Source: an uncultured Pelagibacteraceae bacterium (GTDB taxonomy: Bacteria > Pseudomonadota > Alphaproteobacteria > Pelagibacterales > Pelagibacteraceae). Taken from it: 64,000 nucleotides of DNA. The notes beneath the pieces were generated by a model. The model did no database searches. It was not told the origin of the DNA and was given only the letters and a program-made list of their open reading frames with translations. This document shows, in pieces, positions 4,068-43,541 of the stretch. The translations under genes were made by a program, and so were the position numbers. How positions within the stretch are numbered: position 1 is the first letter of the stretch; every line of letters starts with the position of its first letter. The stretch is taken from positions 11,657 to 75,656 of the forward strand of contig CACJMB010000005.1 in NCBI GenBank assembly GCA_902594405.1, written 5' to 3'.

Positions 4068-4070
4068 GTT

Positions 4071-4628: not shown

Positions 4629-4657
4629 ATTTAGGTATAAATCACTACTTACAGCGC

Positions 4658-7741: not shown

Positions 7742-7769
7742 CCAGAAATATTAAACTTAAAAACTAAAT

Positions 7770-9077: not shown

Positions 9078-9126
9078 TCTTTTATTTATAGTAATAATTG
9101 AAAATTCATGCAAAAAATAGTTTTCA

Positions 9127-10953
9127 ATGAACTCTAATCTAAAAAATAATTTAAATGAATTATTTAATTTAGCTATTGAAAATCATCAAAAAAATAATCT
9201 AGCTGAGGCTTTAAAAATTTATGAGAATGTTCTCAAAATTGATCCTGGTCATTTTAATTCAATACTCAATTTGGGAATTTTGATGGCTCAAAAAAGCATG
9301 TTTGATAATTCATTAATATATTTTAATAAAGCGCTTAAAATTCAACCTGATAATCCAGATATTTTAAACAATCTAGGTCTAGTTAATCGTGATTTGGGTA
9401 ATTTATCTGAAAGTATTAAATTTTTTCAAAAAGCAATAGATATTAAAAAAGATTTTTTTGTTGCCTATAACAATTTAGGAATAATTTACAAAGAACAAGG
9501 TAAATTTGAAAATGCAAAAAGTAATTTTTTAAAATCAATTGAAATAAATTCAATTTATAGTGATCCATACAATAATTTAGGTTTAATTTACAAAGATGAA
9601 AATAAAATTGACCAAGCAGAAAAATATTTTTTAAAAACAATTGAATTAGATCCAAAAAATTTACATGCAATTAATAATTTAGGTAATTTATTAAAAAATA
9701 AAGGTGAAATTTTACAAGCTGAAAAGTATTTTAATAAAGCGATAGAAATTAATAATAAATACTTCGACTCGTTTAATAATTTAATGGATTTATATGAAAG
9801 AACGAATAAAAATGAAAAATTAATTGAAATTATAAATAAAGCAAAAAAATACTTTCCTAATAATTTAGTAGTTGAATTATTTTATGGTCAATATCTCTAC
9901 AAAGTTGAAAAATATAAAGAGTCTATAAATTGCTTAAATAAAATTTCATTTAATGACAATGAATTGAAAAGAGAAAAATTTAAATCACTAATACTTGCAA
10001 AAAGTTATGATAAAATCAATGATGTTGATCAAGCCTATAAATTTTTTGAAATTACAAATAACATTAATCTTCAATTAAAAGATATTAAGATTAATAAAAA
10101 TAATTTTTTAAATATTATAAATGAAAGATTTACTTTTTTTGAAACATATAAAAAAATAGTAAATGATCATGAAAATGAAACTGTTGATAAGAGCCCTATA
10201 TTTTTAATTGGTTTTCCTAGATCTGGAACCACTCTATTAGATACAATTTTAAGATCACATAAGTGTATAGAAGTTATAGAAGAAAAACCAGCAGTGCAAA
10301 ATTTAATTTCGTCAATTAACGCATATACAAAAGGAAATTTTGAAAATTTAGATAATTTAAATCAATTCCAAAAATATCTTTTAAGAGATGAATATTTTAA
10401 AAACTTAAACAGTTATATTGGAAAAAAAAATTATAAAGATATTGTCTTAGATAAAATGCCACTTAATATTATTTATGTTGGTGAAATAATAAAAATTTTT
10501 CCAAATGCAAAATTTATTTTATCATTACGACATCCGTATGACTCTGTCCTAAGTTGTTTTATGCAAAGTTTTGAATTAAACAGCGCTATGTCTAATTTTT
10601 TAAATCTAAATGATAGTGCAATTTTATATGATTTAGTAATGAAGTTATGGAAAGTATATACTGAGAAATTAAATATCAATTATCATATAATAAAATATGA
10701 GGAAATTATAAATGACTTTAATAATACAATTGAAAAAACCTTAAATTTTATCGATTTAAAATGGTCTGATGATTTAAAAAAATTTTATGAAACAGCAAGA
10801 AAAAGAAATTTGATAAACACGCCTAGTTATAATCAGGTAAATAAACCTTTATATAGTAGTTCTATAAATAGATGGAAAAAATATGATAATAAAATTAATA
10901 ATATTTTTCCAATTTTAGATAAATGGGTTAATGAATTTCAATATAAGACATAA
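9127..10953 (+). CDS. TPR-repeat protein with C-terminal sulfotransferase domain
   Basis: Tandem YNNLG-type TPRs, then the PAPS-binding GFPRSGTTL, DKMPLN and RHPYD motifs. Confidence 0.9.
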   Translation: MNSNLKNNLNELFNLAIENHQKNNLAEALKIYENVLKIDPGHFNSILNLGILMAQKSMFDNSLIYFNKALKIQPDNPDILNNLGLVNRDLGNLSESIKFFQKAIDIKKDFFVAYNNLGIIYKEQGKFENAKSNFLKSIEINSIYSDPYNNLGLIYKDENKIDQAEKYFLKTIELDPKNLHAINNLGNLLKNKGEILQAEKYFNKAIEINNKYFDSFNNLMDLYERTNKNEKLIEIINKAKKYFPNNLVVELFYGQYLYKVEKYKESINCLNKISFNDNELKREKFKSLILAKSYDKINDVDQAYKFFEITNNINLQLKDIKINKNNFLNIINERFTFFETYKKIVNDHENETVDKSPIFLIGFPRSGTTLLDTILRSHKCIEVIEEKPAVQNLISSINAYTKGNFENLDNLNQFQKYLLRDEYFKNLNSYIGKKNYKDIVLDKMPLNIIYVGEIIKIFPNAKFILSLRHPYDSVLSCFMQSFELNSAMSNFLNLNDSAILYDLVMKLWKVYTEKLNINYHIIKYEEIINDFNNTIEKTLNFIDLKWSDDLKKFYETARKRNLINTPSYNQVNKPLYSSSINRWKKYDNKINNIFPILDKWVNEFQYKT

Positions 10954-10969
10954 ATTGTCCAAGTTTATT

Positions 10970-11410
10970 TTAAAATTTGATTTTATCACCCACTCTTATA
11001 CTTGCTGATGTAAGAATTTGGCATCTTAGACCACCTTTTCTCATAAATTCTTTAAGAATATTTTTTTGATCAAGCATTTCAGTCAAATGTTTGCACGGAC
11101 GACATAATTCAACCCCCTCTAATTCAACATTCCCTACTTTTAATTTTTTTCCAATTAATTCATTTAGCTGAATCCCTTTTGTAACGACATTCCTTCTAAA
11201 ATCGATGTAAGGTATGTCTAGCCCAAATTTAATATTATATTCATCAATATTCTCAGACTCTATTAAAGACAATTGATTGTATGGATCATTAAAATCATGA
11301 AAATGTCTATCACCTACTATTCCTTTATTTGCTAAAACCTCAATTGAATTTACTTCCTTGATGGGTTGATTATTGTTAGCAGTAATTCCTAATTTAAATA
11401 CTTCGGCCAT
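10970..11410 (-). CDS. MOSC domain protein
   Basis: GIVGDR, FRRNVVTKG, LCRPCKHL and GGLRCQIL motifs. Confidence 0.9.
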   Translation of the reverse strand: MAEVFKLGITANNNQPIKEVNSIEVLANKGIVGDRHFHDFNDPYNQLSLIESENIDEYNIKFGLDIPYIDFRRNVVTKGIQLNELIGKKLKVGNVELEGVELCRPCKHLTEMLDQKNILKEFMRKGGLRCQILTSASIRVGDKIKF

Positions 11411-11457
11411 AAATTATTGAAGAAATAGTTGAGCTCATATAATCTTTTTAAAATAAT

Positions 11458-12282
11458 ATGACTTATCTATCTTCAAATCAACTTAAACAGTATGAAGATC
11501 AAGGTTATATATCCCCTATTGAAGTTTTGTCTAGTCGTGAAGCATTAGAGACAAGAGAAGAAATAGAATTAATTGAAAAAAAAATGCCAAATGAAATAGA
11601 TAAGTCGGGAAGATATAATGTTCATTTAATTTCTCCAAAACTTGATTCGATCGTTCATAATTCTAAAATTTTAGATGCTGTAGAAAGTATTATCGGAAAA
11701 AATATCTTAGTTTGTAGCACTACTTTATTTATTAAAAACCCTAACGAGCAAGGTTTTGTAAGCTATCACCAAGATGCAAAGTACATAGGATTAGAGCCTC
11801 ACAATTGGGTCACAGCATGGGTCGCATTAACAGACTCGAATGAAAACAACGGGTGTATGAAAATGTGGCCTAAATCACATTTAAATATTAAAGATCACAA
11901 TGAGAAATTTAATGAAGGCAACTTGCTTACTCGAGGACAAACAGTAGAGAATGTACCTGAGGACAAAGTTAAGTCTATAGAACTAAAAGCTGGTCAAATG
12001 TCTTTGCATCATCCAAGAATAGTCCATGGGTCAGGAATAAATAAGAGTAATGATAGAAGAATAGGATTTGTTATTCAAAGTTATATAGGGACAAACGTAA
12101 AACAAACCTTAGGTAAAAATGGTGTTCAAGTTGCAAGAGGAGAGGATAAATACCATCATCATGAAATTATAAATAGAACTAATGCTTTAATGAGTGAAGA
12201 AAGTATTTTACTTCGAAAAAAAGAAAATGATTATTTGCAGGAAATTTTTTATAAAGGTGCAAAACAAAAAGGATCTTACTAG
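11458..12282 (+). CDS. Phytanoyl-CoA dioxygenase (PhyH)-family Fe(II)/2-oxoglutarate dioxygenase
   Basis: FIK...YHQD (HxD) motif, distal His in IVHGS, and conserved Arg in DRRIG. Confidence 0.9.
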   Translation: MTYLSSNQLKQYEDQGYISPIEVLSSREALETREEIELIEKKMPNEIDKSGRYNVHLISPKLDSIVHNSKILDAVESIIGKNILVCSTTLFIKNPNEQGFVSYHQDAKYIGLEPHNWVTAWVALTDSNENNGCMKMWPKSHLNIKDHNEKFNEGNLLTRGQTVENVPEDKVKSIELKAGQMSLHHPRIVHGSGINKSNDRRIGFVIQSYIGTNVKQTLGKNGVQVARGEDKYHHHEIINRTNALMSEESILLRKKENDYLQEIFYKGAKQKGSY

Positions 12283-12285
12283 TTT

Positions 12286-13296
12286 ATGAAAAAAGCACTT
12301 AACCTTGGAGTAATCGGAATAGATCATGGTCATATTTTCGATATGCTAGATGAAATGATTAAAGAAGGTTGTAGCTGTAATTATTTTTGGACAGATGGAG
12401 ATCCTTTAACTCTTAAAGAATTTAATAAAAAATATCCAAATATTAAAAGAAAAGAAAATAAAGAGGAAATATTAAATGACTCATCTATTGATATGATTTT
12501 AATATCTTCAATCCCTGTAGATAGAGCTGGTCATTCAATAGACGCATTAAAAGCTGGTAAAGATGTTATGGTAGATAAACCAGGCTGTACTACCTTAGAT
12601 CAGTTAAATAATTTAAAAAACGTTGTTAAAGAAACTGGAAAGATATGGTCTGTAAATTTTTCTGAAAGATTTCACGTTGCTGCAGTTGCTAAAGCTGAAG
12701 AATTAGTCAATGAGGGAAAAATTGGTAAAGTAAAGCAAACGATTGGTACAGGTCCCCATAGACAGGGTAATTATGAAAGACCTGATTGGTTTTATAATCG
12801 TCAAAGTTATGGAGGAATTATTACCGATATTGGTTCTCACCAAATTCATCAATTTTTGGTTTTTACAAATTCAAATCAAGCAAAAATCAACCATGCATTA
12901 GTAGAAAATACTACAAAGAAAGATATGCCTGGTTTTCAAGATTTTGGCGAAGTGAACCTTACTGGTAATGGTGGGCATGGTTATATTCGCCTAGATTGGT
13001 TTACTCCAGATGCCCTTCCAACCTGGGGAGATGGCAGATTGTTAATCCTTGGAGACAAAGGTTTTATTGAAATAAGAAAATATACAGACCTAGCAAAATC
13101 AGAAAAAGGTAATCATTTATTTTTAGCAAATAATGATGAGGTGAAGCATATTGATTGTTCTAATGTTAAACTACCCTACTTTAGCAATTTAATTACTGAT
13201 GTTTTAAACAGAACAGAAACTGCATGTCCTCAAGATCTTACTTATCTTTCAATGGAACTTGCTATTAAAGCTCAAGAGCAAGCCGAAAAAAAATGA
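12286..13296 (+). CDS. Gfo/Idh/MocA-family oxidoreductase
   Basis: Rossmann GVIGIDHGH, GKDVMVDKPG and DIGSHQI motifs. Confidence 0.9.
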   Translation: MKKALNLGVIGIDHGHIFDMLDEMIKEGCSCNYFWTDGDPLTLKEFNKKYPNIKRKENKEEILNDSSIDMILISSIPVDRAGHSIDALKAGKDVMVDKPGCTTLDQLNNLKNVVKETGKIWSVNFSERFHVAAVAKAEELVNEGKIGKVKQTIGTGPHRQGNYERPDWFYNRQSYGGIITDIGSHQIHQFLVFTNSNQAKINHALVENTTKKDMPGFQDFGEVNLTGNGGHGYIRLDWFTPDALPTWGDGRLLILGDKGFIEIRKYTDLAKSEKGNHLFLANNDEVKHIDCSNVKLPYFSNLITDVLNRTETACPQDLTYLSMELAIKAQEQAEKK

Positions 13297-14372
13297 AAAA
13301 ATATCAAGTTGCAATAATTGGTACCAATATAGGGGCAAAACATTTTGAAGATTTTCAAAAAGTATCTGAGAGATTTAGTATTCACACATTATGTGGTTTA
13401 ACTCGGGAGGCTATTGATAAAATATTACAATTAAATACTGAGACAAAAGTTTCTCTAAATTTTGATGATGTATTAAAAGTTAAAGAAATTGATATTATTG
13501 ATATTTGTCTCCCACCCCATTTACATTTTTCTGCTTGTAAAAAAGCTATAGAAGCTGGAAAGCATGTGATTTGTGAAAAACCATTAGTTTCAAGTCTTAA
13601 AGAAATAGATGAATTAGAAAAAATTAGCAAAGAAACTGGCAAAATTATTTTTCCAGTATTTCAATATCGATATGGTCTAGGATTTTCAAAATTAAAAGCA
13701 TTGATCAAATCTGGTTTAGCAGGAAACCCTTTGGTTGCTTCTTTAGAAACTCATTGGAATAGAGGTAAAGATTATTATTCAAAACCTTGGAGAGGAACTT
13801 GGGAAGGTGAACAAGGTGGGGCAATTTTAAGTCACTCTATTCATATTCATGATTTAGTTAGTATGATCCTGGGGCCTGTCTCAAATATTTTTGCAAAATT
13901 AACAACTAGAGTAAATGATATTGAAGTTGAAGATTGTGCAGCTCTTTCTATTGAAATGGAAAACGGCACATTAGTTACAAGTTCAATTACATTGGGTGCA
14001 GCAAATGATACGAGTAGACTTCGATTTTGTTTTGAAGGGTTAACAGCTGAGTCTGGTGCATCACCAGATAAACCATATAGTCCAGCTGATGATAAATGGG
14101 ACTTTTTACCAAGAGCACCTATAACTCAAGCTCAAATAGATGAAGTGCTATCAAAGGTAAAAGAACCAAAATCATGGTATGCAGGTATGTTTGAAGAAAT
14201 TGCTAATAAACTAGATGGATATCCTAGTGATGAAGTAACTTTATCAGATGCTAGAAAATCTCTAGAATTTGTAACCGCTGTGTATGATTCTTCTAGACAA
14301 AATAAGAATATTAAACTTCCAATTAATAAAGATAATCCTTTATATAATTCTTGGTTACCTTTAAATAATTAA
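13293..14372 (+). CDS. Gfo/Idh/MocA-family oxidoreductase
   Basis: GKHVICEKPL, EQGGAILSHSIHIHD and EVED motifs. Confidence 0.9.
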   Translation: MKKYQVAIIGTNIGAKHFEDFQKVSERFSIHTLCGLTREAIDKILQLNTETKVSLNFDDVLKVKEIDIIDICLPPHLHFSACKKAIEAGKHVICEKPLVSSLKEIDELEKISKETGKIIFPVFQYRYGLGFSKLKALIKSGLAGNPLVASLETHWNRGKDYYSKPWRGTWEGEQGGAILSHSIHIHDLVSMILGPVSNIFAKLTTRVNDIEVEDCAALSIEMENGTLVTSSITLGAANDTSRLRFCFEGLTAESGASPDKPYSPADDKWDFLPRAPITQAQIDEVLSKVKEPKSWYAGMFEEIANKLDGYPSDEVTLSDARKSLEFVTAVYDSSRQNKNIKLPINKDNPLYNSWLPLNN

Positions 14373-14850: not shown

Positions 14851-14913
14851 TGTATGAACAAAGAAAACGCAAGTAAACTCTGGAAAATTATTCAGGATGC
14901 TGGCGATTATTTG
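14851..14913 (+). repeat. 63-bp direct repeat, left copy (partner at 18821..18883)
   Basis: 61 of 63 positions are identical by manual alignment; mismatches at 14859/18829 and 14898/18868. Confidence 0.95.
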
Positions 14914-14922
14914 GGGTGCTAG
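14854..14922 (+). pseudogene. Truncated duplicate (22 codons) of the 5' end of the 75-aa gene at 18824
   Basis: Reads MNKENASKLWKIIQDAGDYL-GC-stop, versus MNKENASKLWKIIQEAGDYLLG at 18824. Confidence 0.85.
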
Positions 14923-14930
14923 TGGTACAC

Positions 14931-14965
14931 CCTACCTGACACTACCTCACACTACTTCACACTAG
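14931..14965 (+). repeat. Imperfect 10-bp tandem repeats (cctacctgac actacctcac actacttcac actag)
   Basis: Read directly from the sequence; 10-nt period, 3 to 3.5 units. Confidence 0.75.
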
Positions 14966-15030
14966 CTATGCGGACTATTTAATTTTCATCAAAAATAATT
15001 TGCTTAAAGACTCATCAATTTAAGCAATAA

Positions 15031-15067
15031 ACTAGTCCCCAAACTAGAACATATTGAGATAAATCAA
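15031..15067 (+). repeat. Repeat R1 (37 bp) ACTAGTCCCCAAACTAGAACATATTGAGATAAATCAA
   Basis: One of three near-identical intergenic copies (15031, 16989, 18774). Confidence 0.95.
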
Positions 15068-15121
15068 ATAGCCATTTTTAAGTAATTAGACTCTCTATTT
15101 ATGATTTGGTAATCTTGGATC

Positions 15122-16423
15122 ATGAGCTTAAGTACTGAACTTAAAAAAAAAATTGCTAGAGTAAAACTTAAAGAGTCAGGAACATTTGTTTCTATTTATG
15201 CAGGAGATCTTATTTATGATATCTTGCGCGTTGATCCTAGAGTCGTAGATGGTGTTGATTTTCTTCGAAAAGATGATTTGTCCAGTGTATTAAAGTTTGG
15301 AAAACAAGAGATTGCAGATAGAGCAGAAAAATCAAAAGAATCTTTATCTGGATTACATGACAGTTACACTGGATACACTTTTGAAAGAGTTGTTGCCTTG
15401 GATTTTCAACAGAGAGGTTCTGAAGTTCAATTCCCAAATTCAGCTCAACAATCTGGTCATGATCTTGTAATTAATGGTGAAAAGTTTCAAGTAAAGACCC
15501 AGGGGGACGGTATAGATATAATTGAGAGACATTTTGAAAAATATCCAAACATTAGAGTAATTGCAAACAGTGAAGCTCATGAAAAGTTTATAGAAAAGTA
15601 TCCTGAAAAAGCACATTTGGTTATGAATAGTGGATTTAGCCACGATCAAACTGAAAACCTGGTTAAAGAAAGTACAGACGCAGCTGTGGAAGTATTTGAA
15701 GACAATAATTTATTTGGAAGTGCAATTCCTGAAATACTTGGAATCGTTTCAATTATTTCTATTGGAAAAAATTTTATGAATTGGGCAGAGGGAAATACAA
15801 ATGTTGAGACAGCATTAAAAAATGTTGCAATCGATAGTGTAGGAAAATTTGCAGGAGCTGGAGTAGGTGCAAAATTAGGTTCTTTTATACTGCCACCTTT
15901 TGGAACTATAGTTGGTGGCACACTAGGATTTGTTTTTGGTGGCAACTTAGCTAATGAATATAAAATTGATAATTACTGCAAATATGAAATGGAAAATTTA
16001 GATAAAGCAATTGATGATTATTTAAAAAAAAGTGAGGAGATAATAAGTAAAAATAATAAAAATTTTGAAAAGAAAGTAAAATATTTAACCGAAAAATTAA
16101 AAAATAAAAAAGGTGAAAGAGCTAGAGAGTTTGAATTATTTATTAATAAAAAAATTTTAAGAGAAAGAAAAGATAAACAAGGAATTCTAAATACACTTAG
16201 AAAATATTTTAAAAAATCTAGACGAGGTATCGAAAAATTTGAGGAACTATCTAAGAAATTTAAAGATAAGACTAGTTCAACGAAATATAATCATTACGCA
16301 CTAGAAGCATTAAATTTGTCAGCAGAAAATGGCGTTATGCCAGAGTTTATCCCTTTCGAAGCAGATAATTTATTTGATAAAGTTAAGAAATTTATGGAAG
16401 CAGCAAAAAAACACGGTGTTTAA
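15122..16423 (+). CDS. Hypothetical protein with putative PD-(D/E)xK-like nuclease motif, glycine-zipper TM segment and Lys/Glu-rich C-terminus
   Basis: GYTFERVV...GHDLVINGEKFQVKT (E...D...QxK) followed by AGAGVGAKLGSFILPPFGTIVGGTLGFVFGG. The nuclease call is inferred from the motif only. Confidence 0.55.
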   Translation: MSLSTELKKKIARVKLKESGTFVSIYAGDLIYDILRVDPRVVDGVDFLRKDDLSSVLKFGKQEIADRAEKSKESLSGLHDSYTGYTFERVVALDFQQRGSEVQFPNSAQQSGHDLVINGEKFQVKTQGDGIDIIERHFEKYPNIRVIANSEAHEKFIEKYPEKAHLVMNSGFSHDQTENLVKESTDAAVEVFEDNNLFGSAIPEILGIVSIISIGKNFMNWAEGNTNVETALKNVAIDSVGKFAGAGVGAKLGSFILPPFGTIVGGTLGFVFGGNLANEYKIDNYCKYEMENLDKAIDDYLKKSEEIISKNNKNFEKKVKYLTEKLKNKKGERAREFELFINKKILRERKDKQGILNTLRKYFKKSRRGIEKFEELSKKFKDKTSSTKYNHYALEALNLSAENGVMPEFIPFEADNLFDKVKKFMEAAKKHGV

Positions 16424-16429
16424 AATAAG

Positions 16430-16771
16430 ATGTTTAATTGGATTAAAAGTAAAATCTCTAAAAAAATTAATTCAGAAATGGATGGATGCATTTTGCAAAA
16501 TCTTAATTTTGTAAATATGGTTGAGAAGGAACAATATATTTTTAAGAAAAATATTGACCAGACTATAATGAATCGAATTTATGAGATCAAAGAACAAACT
16601 GAAAAATATGATAAAATTAAAAAAGCTGGTGATAACTTTACCCCTAAAGAAACAGATGATTTGTTGGAAATGAATATGCATTGTAGAAACATTTGGAAAA
16701 CTTATTTTAATAAAACCGCTTTTGAGTTTGATAAAATATTTTCAAGTGATGATCTTGACAGTGATAACTAG
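16430..16771 (+). CDS. Hypothetical protein, 113 aa
   Basis: ORF begins 6 nt after the upstream stop on the same strand. Confidence 0.6.
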   Translation: MFNWIKSKISKKINSEMDGCILQNLNFVNMVEKEQYIFKKNIDQTIMNRIYEIKEQTEKYDKIKKAGDNFTPKETDDLLEMNMHCRNIWKTYFNKTAFEFDKIFSSDDLDSDN

Positions 16772-16791
16772 AGTATCTAACCTAATTAAGT

Positions 16792-16971
16792 ATGACAAAT
16801 TGGCAAATAATTTTAGCGATTATAATTGTTGGATTGTCAATTGTTATGCCAATTTACTATTCTCAAAAAAGAAAGAAAGAAAATCAAACCAAACAAGAAG
16901 CAATTGAGCGTATGCAAATTCGAGAATATGGTAGAAAAATAAACGACGAAACTAGAGCAAAGAAAAAATAA
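16792..16971 (+). CDS. Small single-pass membrane protein, 59 aa (not in the ORF track)
   Basis: Manual translation MTNWQIILAIIIVGLSIVMPIYYSQKRKKENQTKQEAIERMQIREYGRKINDETRAKKK: a hydrophobic N-terminus followed by a basic tail. Confidence 0.7.
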   Translation: MTNWQIILAIIIVGLSIVMPIYYSQKRKKENQTKQEAIERMQIREYGRKINDETRAKKK

Positions 16972-16988
16972 ATTAAATTTTATTGAAA

Positions 16989-17025
16989 ACTATTCCCCAA
17001 ACTAGAACATTTAGAGATAAATCAA
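16989..17025 (+). repeat. Repeat R2 (37 bp) ACTATTCCCCAAACTAGAACATTTAGAGATAAATCAA
   Basis: Second copy of R, lying between cassette A and the SDR-TetR cassette. Confidence 0.95.
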
Positions 17026-17054
17026 AATAGTAATTTATATCAAAATAAGTATTT

Positions 17055-17101
17055 GTCAACAGTTGTTGATAAAATAATAATATAAGTCAACAGTTGTTGA
17101 C
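17055..17101. promoter_or_regulatory. Two palindromic operator candidates GTCAACA-GT-TGTTGA(T/C) at 17055..17070 and 17086..17101
   Basis: The second copy is a perfect 7-2-7 inverted repeat. Both lie upstream of the SDR gene that is paired with a TetR gene. Confidence 0.75.
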
Positions 17102-17147
17102 TCTTTAAATAATAACTTCTAAATTTTATCTAAAAAAAGGAGCAATT

Positions 17148-18101
17148 ATGAAAAATGAAAATAAAAATATGAGTCGAAGACAAGCAATTAAGGGAATTGG
17201 TGCAGTAGCATTAGGTACCACAGCATTAGCAGCTTCAAGTACTGCTAAAGCGAATGAAAAAAAAACAAAAAAAGAACTTGAAGGAAAAACAGCTCTGATC
17301 ACAGGTGGAGCACGTGGCATTGGTTTGGCTAGTGCTGAAGAGCTTGCAAAAGCAGGAGCAAATATCGTTCTTTTTGATGTAGCAAGTGATTTAGAGGGTG
17401 TAAATTATCCTTTGGCCACTGATTTAGATCTAGCAAATGCAAAAAGTAAAGTAGAGTCTTATGGTGTTAAATGTATTTCTTATAAAGGAGATGTAAGAGA
17501 TAGATCTGCCCTATCAGATGCTGTTGGTATGGCTGTTAAGCAGTTTGGAACATTAGATCATGTTGTAGCAAATGCAGGAGTAACACAAATTGGAATGATG
17601 GAATATTTCAGTGAAAAAGAAATTCAAACTGTAATTGATATAAATGTGACTGGAGTTGTGAAAACTATACAAGCTTCTATACCAGTTATGAGAAAACAAA
17701 ATTCTGGGGGAATAACTATTTTATCTTCAGTTTTAGGACGTATGGGTGAAGAGTGGTTTCCAGTTTATTCTGGTACCAAGTGGGCTGTAATTGGATTAGC
17801 AAAAAGTACCGCTTTAATTATGGGAAAGCATAACGTTACTTGCAATGCTATATGTCCAACTGTTGTAAAAACTAAACTCATGAACAATAAATATGTTCTA
17901 GGAGCAATGTCTCCTGAAAACCCAACATGGGAAGGTTTAGAAACGTTAATGAAACAATGGAGAAACCCTCTTCCAATGGGAGCATATAACCCTAATGAGA
18001 TTGGTGAAATGGTTAAATTCTTTGCTAGTAAAAGTGGTGAAAAAATTACTGGTGAAGTTCTAGGAGTAGCAGCAGGTTTATTTGCTCGGAATACTGCTTA
18101 A
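17148..18101 (+). CDS. SDR oxidoreductase with Tat signal peptide, resembling the mycofactocin-associated/carveol dehydrogenase SDR subfamily
   Basis: SRRQAIKG twin-arginine motif plus hydrophobic stretch and AKA cleavage site; TGGARGIG, VVANAG and YSGTK motifs; the DVASDLEGVNYPLATDLDLA insert. Confidence 0.8.
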   Translation: MKNENKNMSRRQAIKGIGAVALGTTALAASSTAKANEKKTKKELEGKTALITGGARGIGLASAEELAKAGANIVLFDVASDLEGVNYPLATDLDLANAKSKVESYGVKCISYKGDVRDRSALSDAVGMAVKQFGTLDHVVANAGVTQIGMMEYFSEKEIQTVIDINVTGVVKTIQASIPVMRKQNSGGITILSSVLGRMGEEWFPVYSGTKWAVIGLAKSTALIMGKHNVTCNAICPTVVKTKLMNNKYVLGAMSPENPTWEGLETLMKQWRNPLPMGAYNPNEIGEMVKFFASKSGEKITGEVLGVAAGLFARNTA

Positions 18102-18159
18102 ATATTCTTCCTCTCGGATCAATCTTTAAGACCCTATTTGAATTGATCTAAAAAACTAT

Positions 18160-18190
18160 AAGTCACCTTGTATTTATTATAAGGTGACTT
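18160..18190. promoter_or_regulatory. 10-bp inverted repeat AAGTCACCTT-N11-AAGGTGACTT upstream of tetR (operator or hairpin)
   Basis: Perfect inverted repeat in the SDR-TetR intergenic space. Confidence 0.55.
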
Positions 18191-18208
18191 GTTATATTTT
18201 TTTAAAAG

Positions 18209-18754
18209 ATGAGAAATTCAAATAATTCAAAAAAAATAATTTTTAATACTGCTAAAAAGCTTTTCTGGACGAAAGGTTATTCAAATGTTTCAGTTCGAGA
18301 TATTGCCAAACAATCTAAATATGACATCGCTCTTATCTCTAGGTACTTCGGCAGTAAGAAAAAGCTTTTTGAAGAAACATTAAAAGATGTTGCAGAATGG
18401 TTTGTTGATGTAAATCCAAATAATATTGTTGATTTTATGGTTGAAGGCCTAATGGAAAATTCAAATCCAAAAGATGATGTAAACCTTGTTAGAATGCTGT
18501 GTATGAATTCTGGTGATCCAGAAGTTGGACATATAGTCAAAAAATTTCATAGAGAAAAAATGAGAAAACCAGTAATTGATGGGATAAGGAAAAAAATTAA
18601 ACCTATCAATTACGATTTAATGGGTGCAATTTTAGTAGGGGTTTCTGTTGCACGAAAAACTCTCGACAATCCTATTTTAAGCAAACTGAATGATAGAGAA
18701 TATGAAAAGATATTAAGGCATTTATTTAATGCAGCGTTAAATTATAAAAACTAA
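18209..18754 (+). CDS. TetR/AcrR-family transcriptional regulator
   Basis: N-terminal HTH: IFNTAKKLFWTKGYSNVSVRDIAKQSKYDIALISRYFGSKKKLF. Confidence 0.92.
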   Translation: MRNSNNSKKIIFNTAKKLFWTKGYSNVSVRDIAKQSKYDIALISRYFGSKKKLFEETLKDVAEWFVDVNPNNIVDFMVEGLMENSNPKDDVNLVRMLCMNSGDPEVGHIVKKFHREKMRKPVIDGIRKKIKPINYDLMGAILVGVSVARKTLDNPILSKLNDREYEKILRHLFNAALNYKN

Positions 18755-18773
18755 TTATAGGATTTTATGGGAT

Positions 18774-18810
18774 ACTAGTCCCCAAACTAGAACATTTGGA
18801 GATAAAACAA
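18774..18810 (+). repeat. Repeat R3 (37 bp) ACTAGTCCCCAAACTAGAACATTTGGAGATAAAACAA
   Basis: Third copy of R, ending 13 nt before the ATG at 18824. Confidence 0.95.
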
Positions 18811-18823
18811 GAATTTAGGTTGT

Positions 18824-19051
18824 ATGAATAAAGAAAACGCAAGTAAACTCTGGAAAATTATTCAGGAAGCTGGCGATTATTTGTTGGGGCAATTACCTGA
18901 TCACCCAAATCACCCCAAAGGAAGAAACCCCTATGCTCATGTTGCTATTTGTGTGAAGAGTAAGTTTAACGCAAGTTATAAAGACATTCCTGATGAACAA
19001 TATGATGAAGTGATAAAATATATTGAGTTTTTAAAAGAAAATCCTAGTTAG
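18824..19051 (+). CDS. Small hypothetical protein, 75 aa (apparent integration target)
   Basis: Intact ORF whose first 20 codons are duplicated at 14854. Confidence 0.75.
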   Translation: MNKENASKLWKIIQEAGDYLLGQLPDHPNHPKGRNPYAHVAICVKSKFNASYKDIPDEQYDEVIKYIEFLKENPS

Positions 19052-20093
19052 CTTTAATTATATCTAACAATTCGTCAACATCACTATCTTTAGTATTCCA
19101 AGCAGCAACTAATCTTACCGCTTTACCATCTAATTCTTCTTCATTCATTTTATAACCTTCAGAATTTAGATGTTCTATTTTTTCTCTTGGAAATTTTGCA
19201 AAAACTTCATTTGCTTCTGTTGGATAAGCAATTTCAATATCATTATACTTACTTAGACCATCACTTAATTTTTTACCCATAGCATTGGCATGTTTTGCAT
19301 TTCTTAACCAAACATCATTTGAAATGTATGCATCGAGTTGAGCAGAAACAAAACGCATTTTAGATAATAAGTGCCCTGCTCTTTTCATTAAAAAAGTAAT
19401 GTCTCCAACTAATTCTTTCTTAAAAAAAATGATTGCTTCAGCTGCTAAACATCCATTTTTAGTTGCGCCAAATGACAATACATCAACCCCTGATTTCCAT
19501 GTCATTTCAGCAGGAGTAACATCTAAAGAAACCAATGCATTAGCAAATCTTGCTCCATCCATATGTAAATTTAAATTATGTTTATGAGTGATTTCTGCAA
19601 TTTTTTTGATTTCATCTAATTGGTAAACTTCACCTGTTTCACACACTTGAGTGATACTGACTGATGAAGGTTGTGTATGATGAACAATCCCTTTTCCCCC
19701 AATAGATTGATCTAACTCCTCTGCAGTTATTTTTCCCATTACCCCATTTAATGTAACTAACTTTCCTCCTCCTGTATAAAATTCAGGTGCACCACATTCA
19801 TCAGTATTTATATGGGACATCTTATGACAATAAATGTTTCCATAAGAAGGTGTCATTGTAGATAATGCTAAAGCATTAGCAGCTGTTCCTGATGCAGTAG
19901 GAAATACAATTACTTCTTTTTCAAATATTTCTGAAAACTTGTCTTGTAATTCAGTTGATATTGGGTCATTCCCATAAGGAGTACTATCTCCCTCATTGGC
20001 TTTTAAAATTGCATCTAATACTTCAGGACAAGCACCAGCAACATTATCAGAAGCGAATTTAACTCGCTCTCTTTTTATTTTAATTTTTGCCAT
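19044..20093 (-). CDS. ltaE: Low-specificity L-threonine aldolase (PLP)
   Basis: FASDN, SGTAANAL, LHMDGARFANA and the PLP-lysine motif SFGATKNG. Confidence 0.88.
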   Translation of the reverse strand: MAKIKIKRERVKFASDNVAGACPEVLDAILKANEGDSTPYGNDPISTELQDKFSEIFEKEVIVFPTASGTAANALALSTMTPSYGNIYCHKMSHINTDECGAPEFYTGGGKLVTLNGVMGKITAEELDQSIGGKGIVHHTQPSSVSITQVCETGEVYQLDEIKKIAEITHKHNLNLHMDGARFANALVSLDVTPAEMTWKSGVDVLSFGATKNGCLAAEAIIFFKKELVGDITFLMKRAGHLLSKMRFVSAQLDAYISNDVWLRNAKHANAMGKKLSDGLSKYNDIEIAYPTEANEVFAKFPREKIEHLNSEGYKMNEEELDGKAVRLVAAWNTKDSDVDELLDIIKAN

Positions 20094-20095
20094 AA

Positions 20096-21211
20096 TTATT
20101 GTTTTGGAAAGTAATCTTTAAGTTCACCCTCTCGGTAAACATCTGCAGTACAACAATGTAAACCTCCACCAAAAGCGTATGCATCTCTAAGTTCTACTGG
20201 TATAACTTCCATTCCTAATTTATCTAATTGTTCAGCTTGATATTTTTCACTTTTTTCCACACATACAGTTTTAGGATCTAAAACTAAAACATTCATTGAT
20301 AACCAAGTTGATGAATAACATAATGGTGGTGGTTCGTTATGAGCTGGTTGTGCACTGTCTACGATTTCCCAACCATTGTCTTCAAATAATTTTCTTTGTT
20401 CCTTAGGAAGTCTTCTTTGTGGGTTATTGATAATTAAACCCTCTTTAATTGGGGTAAAAGTTGCATCAATGTGAATTGGATAAGGATCACCTGGGAAGTT
20501 AACTGCATGAACTCTGTGATCTTTATAATGTCTCTTTAGCCAATCAATTCCTTTTAAATTTGTTGTAAAACCATGTTGAACAACTAAATCTTTTCCAAAT
20601 CTCAATACATCTGCTGCATCAAATAATGGTTCTTCCTCAGTGGTTACAAAATATTTTTTTTCAGTCCACTCTAATCTTTTTTGAACACCAATTTTATCTG
20701 ATAAATAATCTTTTCTGTAATCTGCATCCGTTAATCTTGGTTTTGGAGCAGACTCGTGTCTCATATTAGGATCTTGATTATAATAATCTTTTAGAAGTGG
20801 TCGGTAACATAAATATTCAAACCAACGACAACGATAACTCATTGTAGCTTCTAAAATTTCGTTTCCCACAGTTAACAAAACATCTCTTGGGGGCATGCAG
20901 CCAAACATTGTTTCTGCTTCCCAATCAGGTGTAGATGTTTTTTGATTAAAATCTATTGGTGTCGGTCGATCAACTTTAATACCTCTTTTTTCAAGCATAT
21001 TTGAAAAGTTATCTAATAATTCATTTGCTTTATCGACAGTATCTTTTGTTCTTGGACCAAACTGACCCCGCATATCACTATCTTCTGGAACTTTTGCATC
21101 TAATGCAGGCTCTGGTGCTGGTATACAAGTACCATCCGCTCTACCAACAATTACATGTTTTAACGGATCCCACTCATTCCAACTATTAACAATAGTTTTA
21201 TTCTCGCTCAT
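20096..21211 (-). CDS. Amidinotransferase (glycine/inosamine-phosphate amidinotransferase family)
   Basis: SWNEWDPLKHVIVG, PRD, FDAAD, HIDAT and GGGLHCCT, giving an intact Asp/His/Cys triad. Confidence 0.9.
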   Translation of the reverse strand: MSENKTIVNSWNEWDPLKHVIVGRADGTCIPAPEPALDAKVPEDSDMRGQFGPRTKDTVDKANELLDNFSNMLEKRGIKVDRPTPIDFNQKTSTPDWEAETMFGCMPPRDVLLTVGNEILEATMSYRCRWFEYLCYRPLLKDYYNQDPNMRHESAPKPRLTDADYRKDYLSDKIGVQKRLEWTEKKYFVTTEEEPLFDAADVLRFGKDLVVQHGFTTNLKGIDWLKRHYKDHRVHAVNFPGDPYPIHIDATFTPIKEGLIINNPQRRLPKEQRKLFEDNGWEIVDSAQPAHNEPPPLCYSSTWLSMNVLVLDPKTVCVEKSEKYQAEQLDKLGMEVIPVELRDAYAFGGGLHCCTADVYREGELKDYFPKQ

Positions 21212-21216
21212 AAAGA

Positions 21217-22434
21217 TTAGTTTTTTATAATATTATGCTCAGGCCCGAAAGGAAATTTTGTAATATTTTCTGCTCCATCTTTACCAATCACCAAAATATC
21301 ATGTTCTCTATATCCACCAGCGCCAGGATTACCCTCTGGGATCATGATCATTGGCTCCATCGACACGACCATATTTTCCTCAAGAACAGTATCAATATCT
21401 TCTCTTAATTCTAAACCAGCTTCTCTTCCATAAAAGTGTGAAAGCATACCAAATGAATGTCCGTAACCAAAAGTTCGGTACTGAAGGTAACCAAGTTCAG
21501 CAAACAATTCATTTAACTCATGACAAATATCTGAACATTTAACACCTGGTTTAATCAATTCTAATCCACGTTTGTGAACTTTAACATTTGCTTCCCAAGC
21601 TTTAAGTGAAGCATCATCAGCATGGTCCAAAAACAAAGTTCGCTCTAGTGCGGTGTAGTAACCTGAGATCATAGGAAAAGTATTTAAAGATAAAATATCT
21701 CCTTTAACTAATTTTCTATTAGTCTTTGGATTGTGAGCTCCATCTGTATTGATACCAGATTGAAACCATACCCAAGTATCCATGTACTCTGCACCTGGAT
21801 AGCTTTTAACAATCTCTCTTTCCATTCTATCTCTTGCTGCTATTGCTACTTCGATCTCTGTATTATCTTCTCTAATATTTTTAACTATTTCTTCACCACC
21901 AATGTCTGCAATTCTTGCACCATTTCTAATGATCTCTATTTCTTCGTTTGATTTAATCATTCTAAGTTTCATTAGATCCTTTGAAACATCACTAAACACA
22001 GAGAAAGTAAAAATAGACCCTATTTTTTCTCGCATATCTAACGTGACATGATCATTTTCAATTCCAATATTTTTTGGAGGTTCATCTCTTCCTATAATTG
22101 AAACAATGGCTCTTAAAAAATTATCCCTTTTCCAATCAGTGTAAATAACGTTATCACAATGAGATCTACGCCATGGTTGACTTGCATCAATGTTAGCTGA
22201 AATTGTTGAGATTTTATTTTGAGTGATCACACATCCGTATGGTCTTCCAAAAGAGCAATAAATAAATCCGGTGTAATATGCAACGTTATGCATTGAGGTT
22301 AAGATAACCATATCTAAATTATTTTTATCCATCACTGATCTAAGTTTGCTTACTCGATCGTTATATTCTTTATCGGTAAATGGTAATTTTACTTTTTCAC
22401 CGTTTTTAAGTTCAAAAAAATCTGGTCGTTCCAT
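21217..22434 (-). CDS. Creatinase (creatine amidinohydrolase, M24 fold)
   Basis: YCSFGRPYG, WFQSGINTDGAHNP, YTALERT, GHSFG and SMEP motifs. Confidence 0.88.
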   Translation of the reverse strand: MERPDFFELKNGEKVKLPFTDKEYNDRVSKLRSVMDKNNLDMVILTSMHNVAYYTGFIYCSFGRPYGCVITQNKISTISANIDASQPWRRSHCDNVIYTDWKRDNFLRAIVSIIGRDEPPKNIGIENDHVTLDMREKIGSIFTFSVFSDVSKDLMKLRMIKSNEEIEIIRNGARIADIGGEEIVKNIREDNTEIEVAIAARDRMEREIVKSYPGAEYMDTWVWFQSGINTDGAHNPKTNRKLVKGDILSLNTFPMISGYYTALERTLFLDHADDASLKAWEANVKVHKRGLELIKPGVKCSDICHELNELFAELGYLQYRTFGYGHSFGMLSHFYGREAGLELREDIDTVLEENMVVSMEPMIMIPEGNPGAGGYREHDILVIGKDGAENITKFPFGPEHNIIKN

Positions 22435-22435
22435 A

Positions 22436-23341
22436 TTAATTTAATGCTATATATCTTTTGTTCCATCTCATTATTAAACTGTAATAAAATATAGATACAA
22501 AAAGAAAAAAGCCTCCGATTATTGTATTTGTGGATGGTACTTCATTAATACCAAATAATGGCAACCAAACCCAAAAAATTCCACCTACAACTTCAGTTAA
22601 AGATAATAAAGTTAATTCTGCTGCTGGTATCGCTTTAGATCCAATTGAATATAAAATTAAACCAAAACAAACTAGTGTCCCATGCAAAGAAAATAAAGCT
22701 CCGTTATAGCTAGATGAAAAGAAAACTAAGTCTTTTGATAAAATCATAATTGTTGCAAATACAAAACAAAAGAAACCTGCAAAGGCTACTGTTGTGAATT
22801 TTGGTGTTTCTTTTCTCCATCTAAGCGTTACAGAAAAAACTGAGAAACCAATTGAGGAAGTTAAACCAAATACAAAACCAATTAATGATTTTTCACCGGT
22901 GTTTCCAAGTGCCATAATAATGATACCAACTGTTGCAATTATTATTGATATCCAAACATTGAGAGAAATTTTTTCTTTTAAAAATAAAAATGCTAATAAT
23001 GCTGTAAAAAAAGGCATTGCTGCCAAACAAAGTAAAGTAACTGCGGCGCTAGTATTTGTAATTGAATAAATGAATGTAATCATAGCGATTCCCAATCCAG
23101 ATCCACCAATTACCCCTGATAAACCTATTTTATAATAGTTTTTGTAAAAATTTTTTCCTTCCTCGAAAAATAAATAAAGATTTAATAAGATGAAAATTGT
23201 TAAACCTCTCCCAAAAATATACTGCCAAGGTGCCAATTGAGGATTATCCATGTATCGAACCACTAATGGGCCAAACGACCATAGTAGACCTGCAAAAAGT
23301 ACAACGGGAATGGCTATTCTTGGATTTCTCAACTCTAACAT
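22436..23341 (-). CDS. DMT/EamA-family transporter
   Basis: About 10 TM helices; first gene of the creatinase operon. Confidence 0.85.
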   Translation of the reverse strand: MLELRNPRIAIPVVLFAGLLWSFGPLVVRYMDNPQLAPWQYIFGRGLTIFILLNLYLFFEEGKNFYKNYYKIGLSGVIGGSGLGIAMITFIYSITNTSAAVTLLCLAAMPFFTALLAFLFLKEKISLNVWISIIIATVGIIIMALGNTGEKSLIGFVFGLTSSIGFSVFSVTLRWRKETPKFTTVAFAGFFCFVFATIMILSKDLVFFSSSYNGALFSLHGTLVCFGLILYSIGSKAIPAAELTLLSLTEVVGGIFWVWLPLFGINEVPSTNTIIGGFFLFVSIFYYSLIMRWNKRYIALN

Positions 23342-23390
23342 AATGAGAAATCTAATTCTAAATAGAATTTTCTACAACAAAAATACGTTT

Positions 23391-43359: not shown

Positions 43360-43506
43360 TTTGCCCCCTCTGTCTTGGTGCCTGAGAGATTTGCTCCGTC
43401 GGCGAGAATAATTCTCTTTCCAGAGTTAATATGTACGGTCCTTTTGCCTGAGAGTTTCCGGGGTGGTTGCTCCTTCGGCGCTACAAAAGTAGTCTCTCCC
43501 GTATAT
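43360..43506 (-). ncRNA. Tandem glycine riboswitch
   Basis: Minus strand reads GGGAGAGAC...CGCCGAAGGAGCAA...CTCTCAGGCAAAAGGACCG (aptamer I) and CTCTGGAAAGAG...CGCCGACGGAGCAA...CTCTCAGGCACCAAGACAGAG (aptamer II), directly upstream of gcvT. Confidence 0.96.
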
Positions 43507-43541
43507 AAATTTATAACACATTTAGAATGTTTATGTGAATT

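What the first reader, a model, noticed from the sequence alone, without database searches (positions are those of the whole stretch)
19044..23341. DMT-creatinase-amidinotransferase-threonine aldolase operon: a guanidino-compound-to-glycine route
Seen: four same-strand genes with gaps of 1, 5 and 2 nt, and intact catalytic motifs in both creatinase and amidinotransferase. Established: creatinase gives sarcosine + urea; AGAT-type enzymes reversibly interconvert Arg + Gly and ornithine + guanidinoacetate; LtaE yields glycine; cultured SAR11 are conditional glycine auxotrophs. Inference: all three enzymes converge on glycine supply. The amidinotransferase may run in reverse on guanidinoacetate (or creatine), salvaging the amidino group into arginine rather than losing it as urea. 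Bacterial amidinotransferases are mostly known from secondary-metabolite clusters, so this catabolic context is unusual.
Basis: partly seen in the sequence, partly recalled or inferred. Interest (0 to 1): 0.66.

Follow-up and report, generated by a model that had tools for sequence, protein, structure and literature searches.

The report
SAR11 transporter–creatinase–amidinotransferase–threonine aldolase operon
A SAR11-type ocean bacterium has a real four-gene block (transporter, true creatinase, AGAT-like amidinotransferase, threonine aldolase) built on a near-universal transporter–amidinotransferase pair. It most likely scavenges creatine-type nitrogen compounds for glycine and arginine, but that chemistry is untested.

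Summary
Four minus-strand genes with gaps of 1, 5 and 2 nt encode:
- a 10-helix DMT/EamA permease;
- a true creatinase (60% identical to the Pseudomonas putida enzyme, active-site residues kept);
- an AGAT-type amidinotransferase (44% identical to human AGAT, catalytic and substrate-binding residues kept);
- an L-threonine aldolase (the window's LtaE gene).

The unit is not a fixed four-gene pathway. In 251 genomes of the genus:
- the amidinotransferase is nearly core (210; 44 of 48 high-quality genomes) and follows the permease where I checked;
- creatinase (90) and threonine aldolase (79) are independent add-ons, almost always at the same slots;
- only 38 genomes carry both.

The same amidinotransferase family (70–97% identity) occurs in at least 571 species genomes. 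The 80 loci retrieved were all marine Rhodobacterales, where the gene stands alone.

This genome lacks urease and has two sarcosine oxidase operons.

The glycine-supply and amidino-salvage reading is coherent with these facts. The direction and substrates of the amidinotransferase and permease are inference only. Tight spacing is the genomic norm here and proves nothing.

No paper I could search describes this enzyme's role in SAR11.

The parts
22436..23341 (-). DMT/EamA-family permease (301 aa, about 10 transmembrane segments). It is the first gene and the constant member of the locus.
   Evidence: Pfam EamA 2.5e-18. NCBIfam 2A78 carboxylate/amino acid/amine transporter, 52.9 bits, below cut-off. 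Hydropathy peaks. Orthologues (69-99% identity) lie directly upstream of the amidinotransferase, or of creatinase, across the genus.
21217..22434 (-). Creatinase (creatine amidinohydrolase, EC 3.5.3.3 type; 405 aa). Accessory insert between the permease and the amidinotransferase.
   Evidence: PDB 1chm E = 5.5e-162, 7yto 1.1e-161, 1kp0 4.3e-148. 60% identity to 1chm. C60, F62, R64, H232, N249, Y258, A260, E262, C298, F320, H324, R335, E358 and H376 are all identical. Present in 90 of 251 genus genomes and directly upstream of the amidinotransferase in 84 of 85 with coordinates.
20096..21211 (-). AGAT-type amidinotransferase (371 aa). Near-core SAR11 gene of unknown physiological substrates.
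   Evidence: Human AGAT 1jdw E = 5.9e-87; SxtG, HsvA and StrB1 score lower. Catalytic triad and substrate-binding residues are kept. Flap residues N300->Y244 and M302->I246 are invariant in the family. Found in 210 of 251 genus genomes, 44 of 48 high-quality, and in 51 of 61 Pelagibacterales relatives.
19044..20093 (-). L-threonine aldolase / phenylserine aldolase family PLP enzyme (349 aa). Accessory last gene and the only homologue in this genome.
   Evidence: PF01212 2e-59. PDB 1v72 1.6e-108; L-threonine aldolases 7yvr, 9l9g and 5vye. SFGATK motif, Lys212. Present in 79 of 251 genus genomes and directly downstream of the amidinotransferase in 68 of 71 with coordinates. Sole copy in the genome.
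23355..23383 (-). Conserved upstream motif TTTTTGTTGTAG (23372-23383) followed by TAGAAT (23355-23360), in the 49-nt spacer between moeA and the permease gene. Possible promoter or operator of the operon.
   Evidence: The motif is kept in 9 loci of other genomes with the moeA-permease arrangement, though flanking coding sequence is only 60-85% identical. It is degenerate in one more (L023) and absent where sufU is the neighbour. The generic promoter scan did not flag it, and promoter-like hits were not above shuffles. Function is inferred.

Best explanation
This is a modular nitrogen-solute scavenging operon of a SAR11/Pelagibacter-type bacterium, built on an ancestral permease-amidinotransferase pair.

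**Shown by sequence**
- The second gene is a true creatinase (creatine + H2O -> sarcosine + urea).
- The third gene is an intact AGAT-family amidinotransferase.
- The fourth gene is an L-threonine aldolase (threonine -> glycine + acetaldehyde).
- The genome also encodes two sarcosine oxidases (sarcosine -> glycine + C1 unit) and no urease.

**Inferred**
- The DMT permease imports small zwitterionic guanidino or amino acids such as creatine and guanidinoacetate.
- The amidinotransferase runs in the salvage direction. It passes the amidino group of guanidinoacetate, or a related guanidino acid (possibly creatine), to ornithine.
- That reaction yields arginine plus glycine (or sarcosine, beta-alanine, GABA or taurine, depending on the donor).
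- Two nitrogens are thereby kept that hydrolysis would lose as unusable urea.

Creatinase and threonine aldolase are optional extensions. They add creatine and threonine as further sources for the glycine that these serine/glycine-dependent cells need.
For: - **Gene identities and intact active sites:**
- **Conserved core:** the amidinotransferase is in 210 of 251 genus genomes, 44 of 48 high-quality. It is directly after the permease in every locus compared.
- **Fixed slots for the add-ons:** creatinase is directly upstream in 84 of 85 cases and threonine aldolase directly downstream in 68 of 71. All four combinations exist: permease-AT, permease-creatinase-AT, permease-AT-LtaE and the full set.
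- **Recurring catabolic context in other SAR11 lineages:**
  - next to a creatinase/DoeA-like M24 hydrolase in G040 and G046 (coordinates);
  - inserted after a dimethylglycine-dehydrogenase-like gene in a BHMT operon in G004.
- **Downstream chemistry:** two soxB loci above cut-off. No urease in this genome, and the syntenic site of the nearest relative's urease holds other genes.
- **Established knowledge:** the AGAT reaction is reversible and accepts several guanidino acids and amines. Pelagibacter needs exogenous glycine (bioRxiv 10.64898/2026.04.03.716430).
- **Context:** creatine use by marine bacteria, and creatinase genes in SAR11 metagenomic bins, are already noted (PMC3686209; PMC11366302).
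Against: - Nothing computed here shows the direction or substrates of the amidinotransferase.
- Every characterised member of the family works physiologically from arginine towards a guanidino product.
- DMT/EamA proteins are often exporters.
- Tight spacing is the norm in this genome, and synteny within one genus may simply be inherited.
- An unrelated TPR-sulfotransferase gene sits between creatinase and the amidinotransferase in G565. Insertion into this operon therefore does not require a shared function.
- In the 80 marine Rhodobacterales loci retrieved, the same family has no conserved neighbour. In the sister SAR11 family it is not linked to the permease homologue.
- There is no glycine riboswitch or other known RNA element on this operon.
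- I found no paper reporting guanidinoacetate as a seawater solute.
- Co-transcription could not be tested.
Confidence: 0.45

Rival explanations
1. The amidinotransferase runs in the classical direction (arginine + glycine -> ornithine + guanidinoacetate).
- It would serve as an arginine-cleaving or ornithine-supplying step in a cell without a canonical arginase.
- Guanidinoacetate would then be exported by the DMT protein. Alternatively, one of the agmatinase-family ureohydrolases would hydrolyse it back to glycine + urea, giving a two-step 'arginase' with glycine as carrier.
- Threonine aldolase and creatinase/sarcosine oxidase would then feed the glycine acceptor.
For: - All characterised AGAT-family enzymes act this way (PMC2242806).
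- All arginine/ornithine-binding residues are kept.
- EamA-family proteins are frequently exporters (established knowledge).
- The genome has two agmatinase-type ureohydrolases but nothing reaching the rocF arginase cut-off.
- An enzyme annotated as agmatinase in humans is in fact a guanidino-acid hydrolase (PMC9772407, listed).
- The gene is stand-alone in the Rhodobacterales loci. That fits an enzyme acting on common intracellular metabolites.
Against: - It spends glycine in an organism that depends on external glycine.
- The urea produced is useless without urease.
- A catabolic creatinase has been inserted precisely between the permease and this enzyme in 36% of genus genomes. That fits import better than export.
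- No guanidinoacetate methyltransferase partner is conserved. The methyltransferase next to the second copy in G004 belongs to the host operon.
Confidence: 0.2
2. The four genes are neighbours without a shared pathway. SAR11 genomes are packed into long co-directional runs, and this locus borders a variable region. Creatinase, amidinotransferase and threonine aldolase would each work independently, and the permease would carry something else.
For: - The median same-strand gap is 3 nt across the window.
- The unrelated molybdenum-cofactor genes mobA and moeA lie on the same strand just upstream.
- A TPR-sulfotransferase gene is inserted in the operon in G565.
- Creatinase stands alone in G039, and the amidinotransferase stands alone in G037 and the Rhodobacterales loci.
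Against: - Two accessory genes of related chemistry (both yield glycine or its precursor) were each fixed at a defined slot of the same operon.
- The amidinotransferase recurs beside M24 hydrolases and methylated-amine catabolic genes in other SAR11 lineages.
- Permease-amidinotransferase adjacency holds across genus members whose flanking MoeA is only 53-78% identical.
Confidence: 0.17
3. The amidinotransferase uses the sarcosine/creatine pair: creatine + ornithine <-> sarcosine + arginine. It would be a nitrogen-conserving alternative to creatinase, and its reversibility would let label flow from sarcosine into creatine.
For: - Boysen et al. saw 13C3,15N1-creatine form from labelled glycine betaine in seawater. 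They called for an unidentified sarcosine-to-creatine enzyme or a reversible creatinase (PMC9321204).
- The gene lies next to creatinase here. In G004 it lies directly after a dimethylglycine-dehydrogenase-like gene that should yield sarcosine.
- The flap residues differ from human AGAT and are invariant in this family.
- An earlier, unchecked note reports a creatininase-amidinotransferase block without creatinase in another bacterium (e1-3733751).
Against: - To my knowledge creatine or sarcosine has not been reported as a substrate of any AGAT-family enzyme.
- If the enzyme handled creatine well, acquiring a creatinase would be largely redundant.
- CyrA, a strict arginine:glycine enzyme, also carries an aromatic residue at the N300 position (my recollection, not tested here).
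Confidence: 0.13

Closest known systems
Vertebrate L-arginine:glycine amidinotransferase (AGAT/GATM, EC 2.1.4.1; PDB 1jdw) and cyanobacterial CyrA/SxtG
   Same: Same fold family. 44% identity over 351 aligned residues. The Cys-His-Asp triad (C407, H303, D254) and D170, D305, R322 and S355 are all kept. It scores higher against human AGAT than against SxtG, HsvA or StrB1.
   Different: - Flap residues N300 and M302 are Tyr and Ile, invariant in this clade.
- There is no methyltransferase or toxin-cluster partner.
- It is a near-core gene of a streamlined heterotroph, placed behind a permease and beside catabolic enzymes.
- The physiological direction and substrates are unknown.
- NCBI's pipeline labels members 'serine/threonine protein kinase'.
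Classical bacterial creatine/creatinine pathway (creatininase, creatinase, sarcosine oxidase; Pseudomonas putida, Arthrobacter)
   Same: The creatinase is 60% identical to the P. putida enzyme with the full active site. Sarcosine oxidase genes are present elsewhere in the genome.
   Different: No creatininase was seen in the locus. Sarcosine oxidase is unlinked. No urease is present to use the urea. The partners are a DMT permease and an amidinotransferase.
Low-specificity L-threonine aldolase / phenylserine aldolase (LtaE; PDB 1v72, 5vye)
   Same: Strong full-length match, with the PLP lysine motif kept.
   Different: It is an accessory gene found only in part of the genus (79 of 251). It almost always lies at the 3' end of this operon. 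Its substrate range is untested.
SAR11 methylated-amine/osmolyte demethylation network (glycine betaine -> dimethylglycine -> sarcosine -> glycine; Sun et al. 2011, as cited in PMC3686209)
   Same: It converges on sarcosine and glycine. Creatine was already drawn as an input through creatinase.
   Different: In the papers I could search, the amidinotransferase and the DMT permease are not part of any described scheme for SAR11.

Membership tests
Creatinase (creatine amidinohydrolase, M24 'pita-bread' fold, metal-free) | Full-length similarity to characterised creatinases, with an N-terminal creatinase domain plus an M24 domain | tested here: met
   1chm 5.5e-162, 7yto 1.1e-161, 1kp0 4.3e-148, each over the whole length. 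Pfam Creatinase_N plus Peptidase_M24.
Creatinase (creatine amidinohydrolase, M24 'pita-bread' fold, metal-free) | Active-site residues of the P. putida enzyme: His232, Glu262, Glu358, Arg64, Arg335, Phe62. The metal-ligand positions are replaced by Asn249, Ala260, His324 and His376. | tested here: met
   All are identical in the alignment. The residue list comes from my memory of the 1chm literature; the numbering matched the alignment exactly.
Creatinase (creatine amidinohydrolase, M24 'pita-bread' fold, metal-free) | Hydrolysis of creatine to sarcosine and urea | not testable with these tools
   Needs an enzyme assay.
AGAT-type amidinotransferase (guanidino-group-modifying enzyme superfamily) | Cys-His-Asp catalytic triad (human C407, H303, D254) | tested here: met
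   C353, H247 and D198 align with them. They are invariant in 18 family members.
AGAT-type amidinotransferase (guanidino-group-modifying enzyme superfamily) | Guanidino- and carboxylate-binding residues D170, D305, R322 and S355 | tested here: met
   D110, D249, R266 and S301.
AGAT-type amidinotransferase (guanidino-group-modifying enzyme superfamily) | 300-flap residues N300 and M302 of the human arginine:glycine enzyme | tested here: not met
   Y244 and I246, with a one-residue insertion before the flap. FPGDPYPIHIDATF is invariant in this clade. Arginine:glycine specificity is therefore not assured.
AGAT-type amidinotransferase (guanidino-group-modifying enzyme superfamily) | Arginine + glycine <-> ornithine + guanidinoacetate activity | not testable with these tools
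   Needs an enzyme assay.
L-threonine aldolase (fold-type I PLP, Beta_elim_lyase) | Family-level match and PLP-binding lysine | tested here: met
   PF01212 2e-59. 1v72 1.6e-108. Lys212 in SFGATK. The NCBIfam equivalog models (LtaE PRK10534, GntG) score below cut-off, so the exact subfamily is open.
DMT superfamily, 10-TMS drug/metabolite transporter (EamA) | EamA repeat(s) and about ten transmembrane segments | tested here: met
   One EamA repeat is significant. About 10 hydrophobic segments. The second repeat is not detected by Pfam.
DMT superfamily, 10-TMS drug/metabolite transporter (EamA) | Substrate and direction of transport | not testable with these tools
   Only a sub-threshold hit to the carboxylate/amino acid/amine transporter model.
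Operon (single transcription unit) | Co-transcription of the four genes | not testable with these tools
Promoter and terminator scans were not above shuffles. There is only a conserved upstream motif.

The most novel reading that the evidence does not exclude
The near-universal SAR11 (and roseobacter) AGAT-family enzyme is a guanidino-acid:ornithine amidinotransferase that also handles the creatine/sarcosine pair. If so, the ocean's most abundant heterotrophs would convert creatine-type solutes into arginine without releasing urea. The enzyme's reversibility would also be the missing 'sarcosine-to-creatine' activity seen in seawater isotope tracing (PMC9321204).
Probability: 0.13. Interest if true: 0.8.

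Novelty: new variant of a known kind. Interest (0 to 1): 0.6.

Why it matters
SAR11 is the most abundant heterotroph in the sea. It is limited by reduced nitrogen and by glycine supply.

A near-core, extremely conserved enzyme of the creatine-pathway family has no assigned role in these cells. It is even mislabelled as a protein kinase in public annotation.

If it salvages amidino groups into arginine, three things follow:
- it defines a new, urea-free route for guanidino compounds in the marine nitrogen cycle;
- it adds creatine and guanidinoacetate to the compounds that can relieve the glycine requirement;
- it may explain the puzzling creatine labelling in field experiments.

The natural mix-and-match of modules across strains offers ready-made comparison strains for testing this.

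Tried and rejected
1. **Glycine riboswitch control of the operon: rejected.** The only Rfam hit in the window is the gcvT riboswitch at 43426-43511.
2. **Creatinase and amidinotransferase as an obligate pair: rejected.** The amidinotransferase is present in 210 genus genomes and creatinase in 90. Permease-amidinotransferase loci without creatinase are common.
3. **Threonine aldolase as an obligate member: rejected.** 52 creatinase carriers lack it and 41 carriers of it lack creatinase.
4. **Creatine biosynthesis (amidinotransferase plus methyltransferase): considered, then rejected.** In G004 a SAM methyltransferase follows a second amidinotransferase copy. The same methyltransferase follows the dehydrogenase gene in this genome with no amidinotransferase present, so it is not a partner.
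5. **Conserved partner genes outside SAR11: none found.** No neighbour family recurs in more than 12 of 80 Rhodobacterales loci. Seven other alphaproteobacterial loci show no creatinase nearby.
6. **Creatinase linked to urease: weak.** Only 2 of 15 creatinase carriers among close relatives have urease, and this genome has none.
7. **Promoter and terminator scans:** not above shuffled controls.
9. **Literature:** ten searches gave no functional description of the SAR11 amidinotransferase. One preprint has a KEGG-based mention of GATM as 'taurine to taurocyamine'.
Full report
**1. What is in the sequence**

Four ORFs lie head to tail on the minus strand at 22436-23341, 21217-22434, 20096-21211 and 19044-20093. 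The gaps are 1, 5 and 2 nt.

- **Permease.** An EamA/DMT protein (Pfam 2.5e-18) with about ten hydrophobic segments.
- **Creatinase.** It matches the crystal-structure creatinases over its whole length (1chm 5.5e-162, 7yto, 1kp0) at 60% identity.
  - All fourteen active-site or former metal-ligand positions that I recalled for the Pseudomonas putida enzyme are identical.
  - NCBIfam gave only sub-threshold hits to other M24 enzymes, so that library holds no creatinase model.
- **Amidinotransferase.** It matches human L-arginine:glycine amidinotransferase best (1jdw 5.9e-87). SxtG, HsvA and StrB1 score lower.
  - Over 351 aligned residues it is 44% identical.
  - It keeps D170, D254, H303, D305, R322, S355 and C407.
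  - Flap residues N300 and M302 are Tyr and Ile.
- **Threonine aldolase (LtaE).** It belongs to the L-threonine/phenylserine aldolase group (1v72 1.6e-108), with the PLP lysine in place.

**2. Is the tight packing meaningful?**

Not by itself. In this window 32 of 51 same-strand neighbour pairs are separated by 5 nt or less, and the median is 3 nt. The unrelated molybdenum-cofactor genes mobA and moeA lie on the same strand just upstream.

Promoter- and terminator-like sites are not enriched over shuffles. Rfam finds nothing on the operon. The window's only riboswitch is the glycine riboswitch before gcvT at 43426-43511.

A short motif, TTTTTGTTGTAG (23372-23383), followed by TAGAAT lies in the 49-nt spacer before the permease gene. 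It is conserved in 9 related genomes that share the moeA neighbour and degenerate in one more. It may be the operon's promoter or operator.

**3. Comparative anatomy**

The genome is a 1.25-Mb, 29% GC, SAR11/Pelagibacter-type assembly.

| Gene | Of 251 genus genomes | Of 48 high-quality | Position |
|---|---|---|---|
| Amidinotransferase | 210 | 44 | follows the permease in every locus compared |
| Creatinase | 90 | 21 | directly upstream of the amidinotransferase in 84 of 85 with coordinates |
| Threonine aldolase | 79 | 29 | directly downstream of the amidinotransferase in 68 of 71 with coordinates |

- Thirty-eight genomes have both add-ons, 52 have only creatinase and 41 have only the aldolase.
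- Fetched loci show every combination at the same chromosomal site:
  - permease-amidinotransferase;
  - permease-creatinase-amidinotransferase;
  - permease-amidinotransferase-aldolase;
  - all four;
  - once, permease-aldolase with the amidinotransferase elsewhere.
- Decay also occurs. The aldolase carries stop codons in G005, and creatinase does in G571 and G648.
- In G565 an unrelated TPR-sulfotransferase gene sits between creatinase and the amidinotransferase.

The ancestral unit is therefore the permease-amidinotransferase pair. Creatinase and the aldolase are independent optional modules. The four-gene form in the window is one of several states.

**4. The amidinotransferase family beyond this genus**

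- **Sister SAR11 family.**
  - The gene is also nearly universal, at 70-75% identity, but is not linked to the 45%-identical permease homologue.
  - In two genomes it lies directly before a creatinase/DoeA-like M24 gene (coordinates).
- **G004.** A second-type copy is inserted after a dimethylglycine-dehydrogenase-like gene in an operon that starts with a betaine-homocysteine-methyltransferase-like gene. The methyltransferase that follows it there belongs to the host operon, since this genome has the same operon without the amidinotransferase.
- **Outside SAR11.**
  - The family is remarkably conserved at 72-85% identity.
  - It is sparse among Alphaproteobacteria as a whole, with 8 close homologues in 401 evenly drawn genomes.
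  - A pattern scan found relatives in at least 571 species genomes. The 80 best loci were all marine Rhodobacterales, and no neighbour family recurs in more than 12 of them.
- **Public annotation.** NCBI labels members 'serine/threonine protein kinase', while JGI calls them glycine amidinotransferase. The flap sequence FPGDPYPIHIDATF is invariant across the clade.

**5. Metabolic setting in this genome**

- There are two soxB genes above the curated cut-off and two dimethylglycine/sarcosine-dehydrogenase-like genes. Sarcosine from creatinase can therefore reach glycine.
- No urease is present. The nearest relative, G024, has urease in a segment that in this genome is replaced by unrelated secreted-protein genes, on an unbroken contig. 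Urea from creatinase is therefore probably lost through that route. I did not search for other urea-degrading enzymes.
- There are two agmatinase-type ureohydrolases, and nothing reaches the arginase model's cut-off.
- The aldolase and the amidinotransferase in the window are the only copies in the genome.

**6. Interpretation**

The three enzymes do converge on glycine or its precursor, and Pelagibacter depends on external glycine.

Two glycine-yielding accessory enzymes have been fixed at defined slots of a permease-led operon. The amidinotransferase also recurs beside osmolyte-catabolic genes in other SAR11 lineages. Both facts favour a scavenging role with the amidinotransferase working towards arginine. 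That direction conserves two nitrogens which a urease-less cell would otherwise discard.

This remains inference. Every characterised family member works from arginine. DMT proteins are often exporters. Synteny within a genus can be inherited. Unrelated genes can also enter the operon. I put the salvage model at 0.45.

The rivals are:
- a classical-direction role in arginine cleavage (0.20);
- mere neighbourhood (0.17);
- a creatine/sarcosine-specific transamidinase (0.13).

The last would also explain the 13C3,15N1-creatine formed from labelled glycine betaine in seawater. For that observation the authors invoked an unknown enzyme or a reversible creatinase (PMC9321204).

**7. Novelty**

Already in the literature:
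- creatinase in SAR11 bins and creatine use by marine bacteria (PMC3686209, PMC11366302);
- threonine aldolase in Pelagibacter.

I found no description of the SAR11 amidinotransferase, its permease partner or this modular locus. One preprint has only a KEGG-derived mention of GATM.

Earlier unchecked notes of this scan reached similar readings on other genomes. I reproduced the locus variants independently, but I did not test their claims of transcription or of a creatininase-linked version.

The finding is a new variant of known enzyme kinds in a new context. It is not a new kind of system.

Noticed in passing
window 20096-21211 and homologues P0007, P0028, P0073, P0093: Members of this highly conserved AGAT-like family are named 'serine/threonine protein kinase' in NCBI records. 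This is a systematic misannotation that hides the family from keyword searches.
   Followed up: partly
G000 contig C5:77525-82779 (just beyond the window's right end) versus G024:C1:68370-73536: The nearest relative carries urease in a roughly 5-kb segment. In this genome that segment is replaced by genes for large secreted/lipoprotein-like proteins, and the flanks are collinear. It looks like a small hypervariable spot.
   Followed up: partly
L122 (G004:C4) 2845-13807; G000 contig C4:1-6596: A long operon contains BHMT-like, dimethylglycine-dehydrogenase-like, SAM methyltransferase, M24 creatinase-like, small kinase-like and enoyl-CoA hydratase genes, beside a glycine-betaine binding protein gene. 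G004 additionally has a second-type amidinotransferase, a Rieske oxygenase and a SET-domain gene inserted in it.
   Followed up: partly
L124 (G565:C16) 3352-5064: A 570-aa TPR plus sulfotransferase protein gene is inserted between creatinase and the amidinotransferase in one genome.
   Followed up: yes
G005:C7:21907-22951; G571:C1:245960-246745; G648:C13:40784-41995: Decaying copies: the threonine aldolase has stop codons in G005, and creatinase is truncated or interrupted in G571 and G648. The add-on modules are being lost as well as gained.
   Followed up: no
window 43542-44414 (-) and 6866-7741 (+): Two paralogues of the DMT permease are present (phmmer 1.3e-20 and 7e-27). One lies immediately upstream of the glycine riboswitch-gcvT unit.
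   Followed up: no
window 18826-19046 (+): A small plus-strand gene converges on the threonine aldolase gene, and their stop codons overlap. Earlier notes describe its 5' end as an integration hotspot bounding the island at 14851-19051.
   Followed up: no
G000 contig C2:161914-163083 and C2:171332-173745: An ectoine-hydrolase-like M24 protein (DoeA model, 452 bits, below cut-off) lies about 8 kb from a core agmatinase-subfamily ureohydrolase that is followed by an aldehyde dehydrogenase. They may form another guanidino or osmolyte catabolic set.
   Followed up: partly
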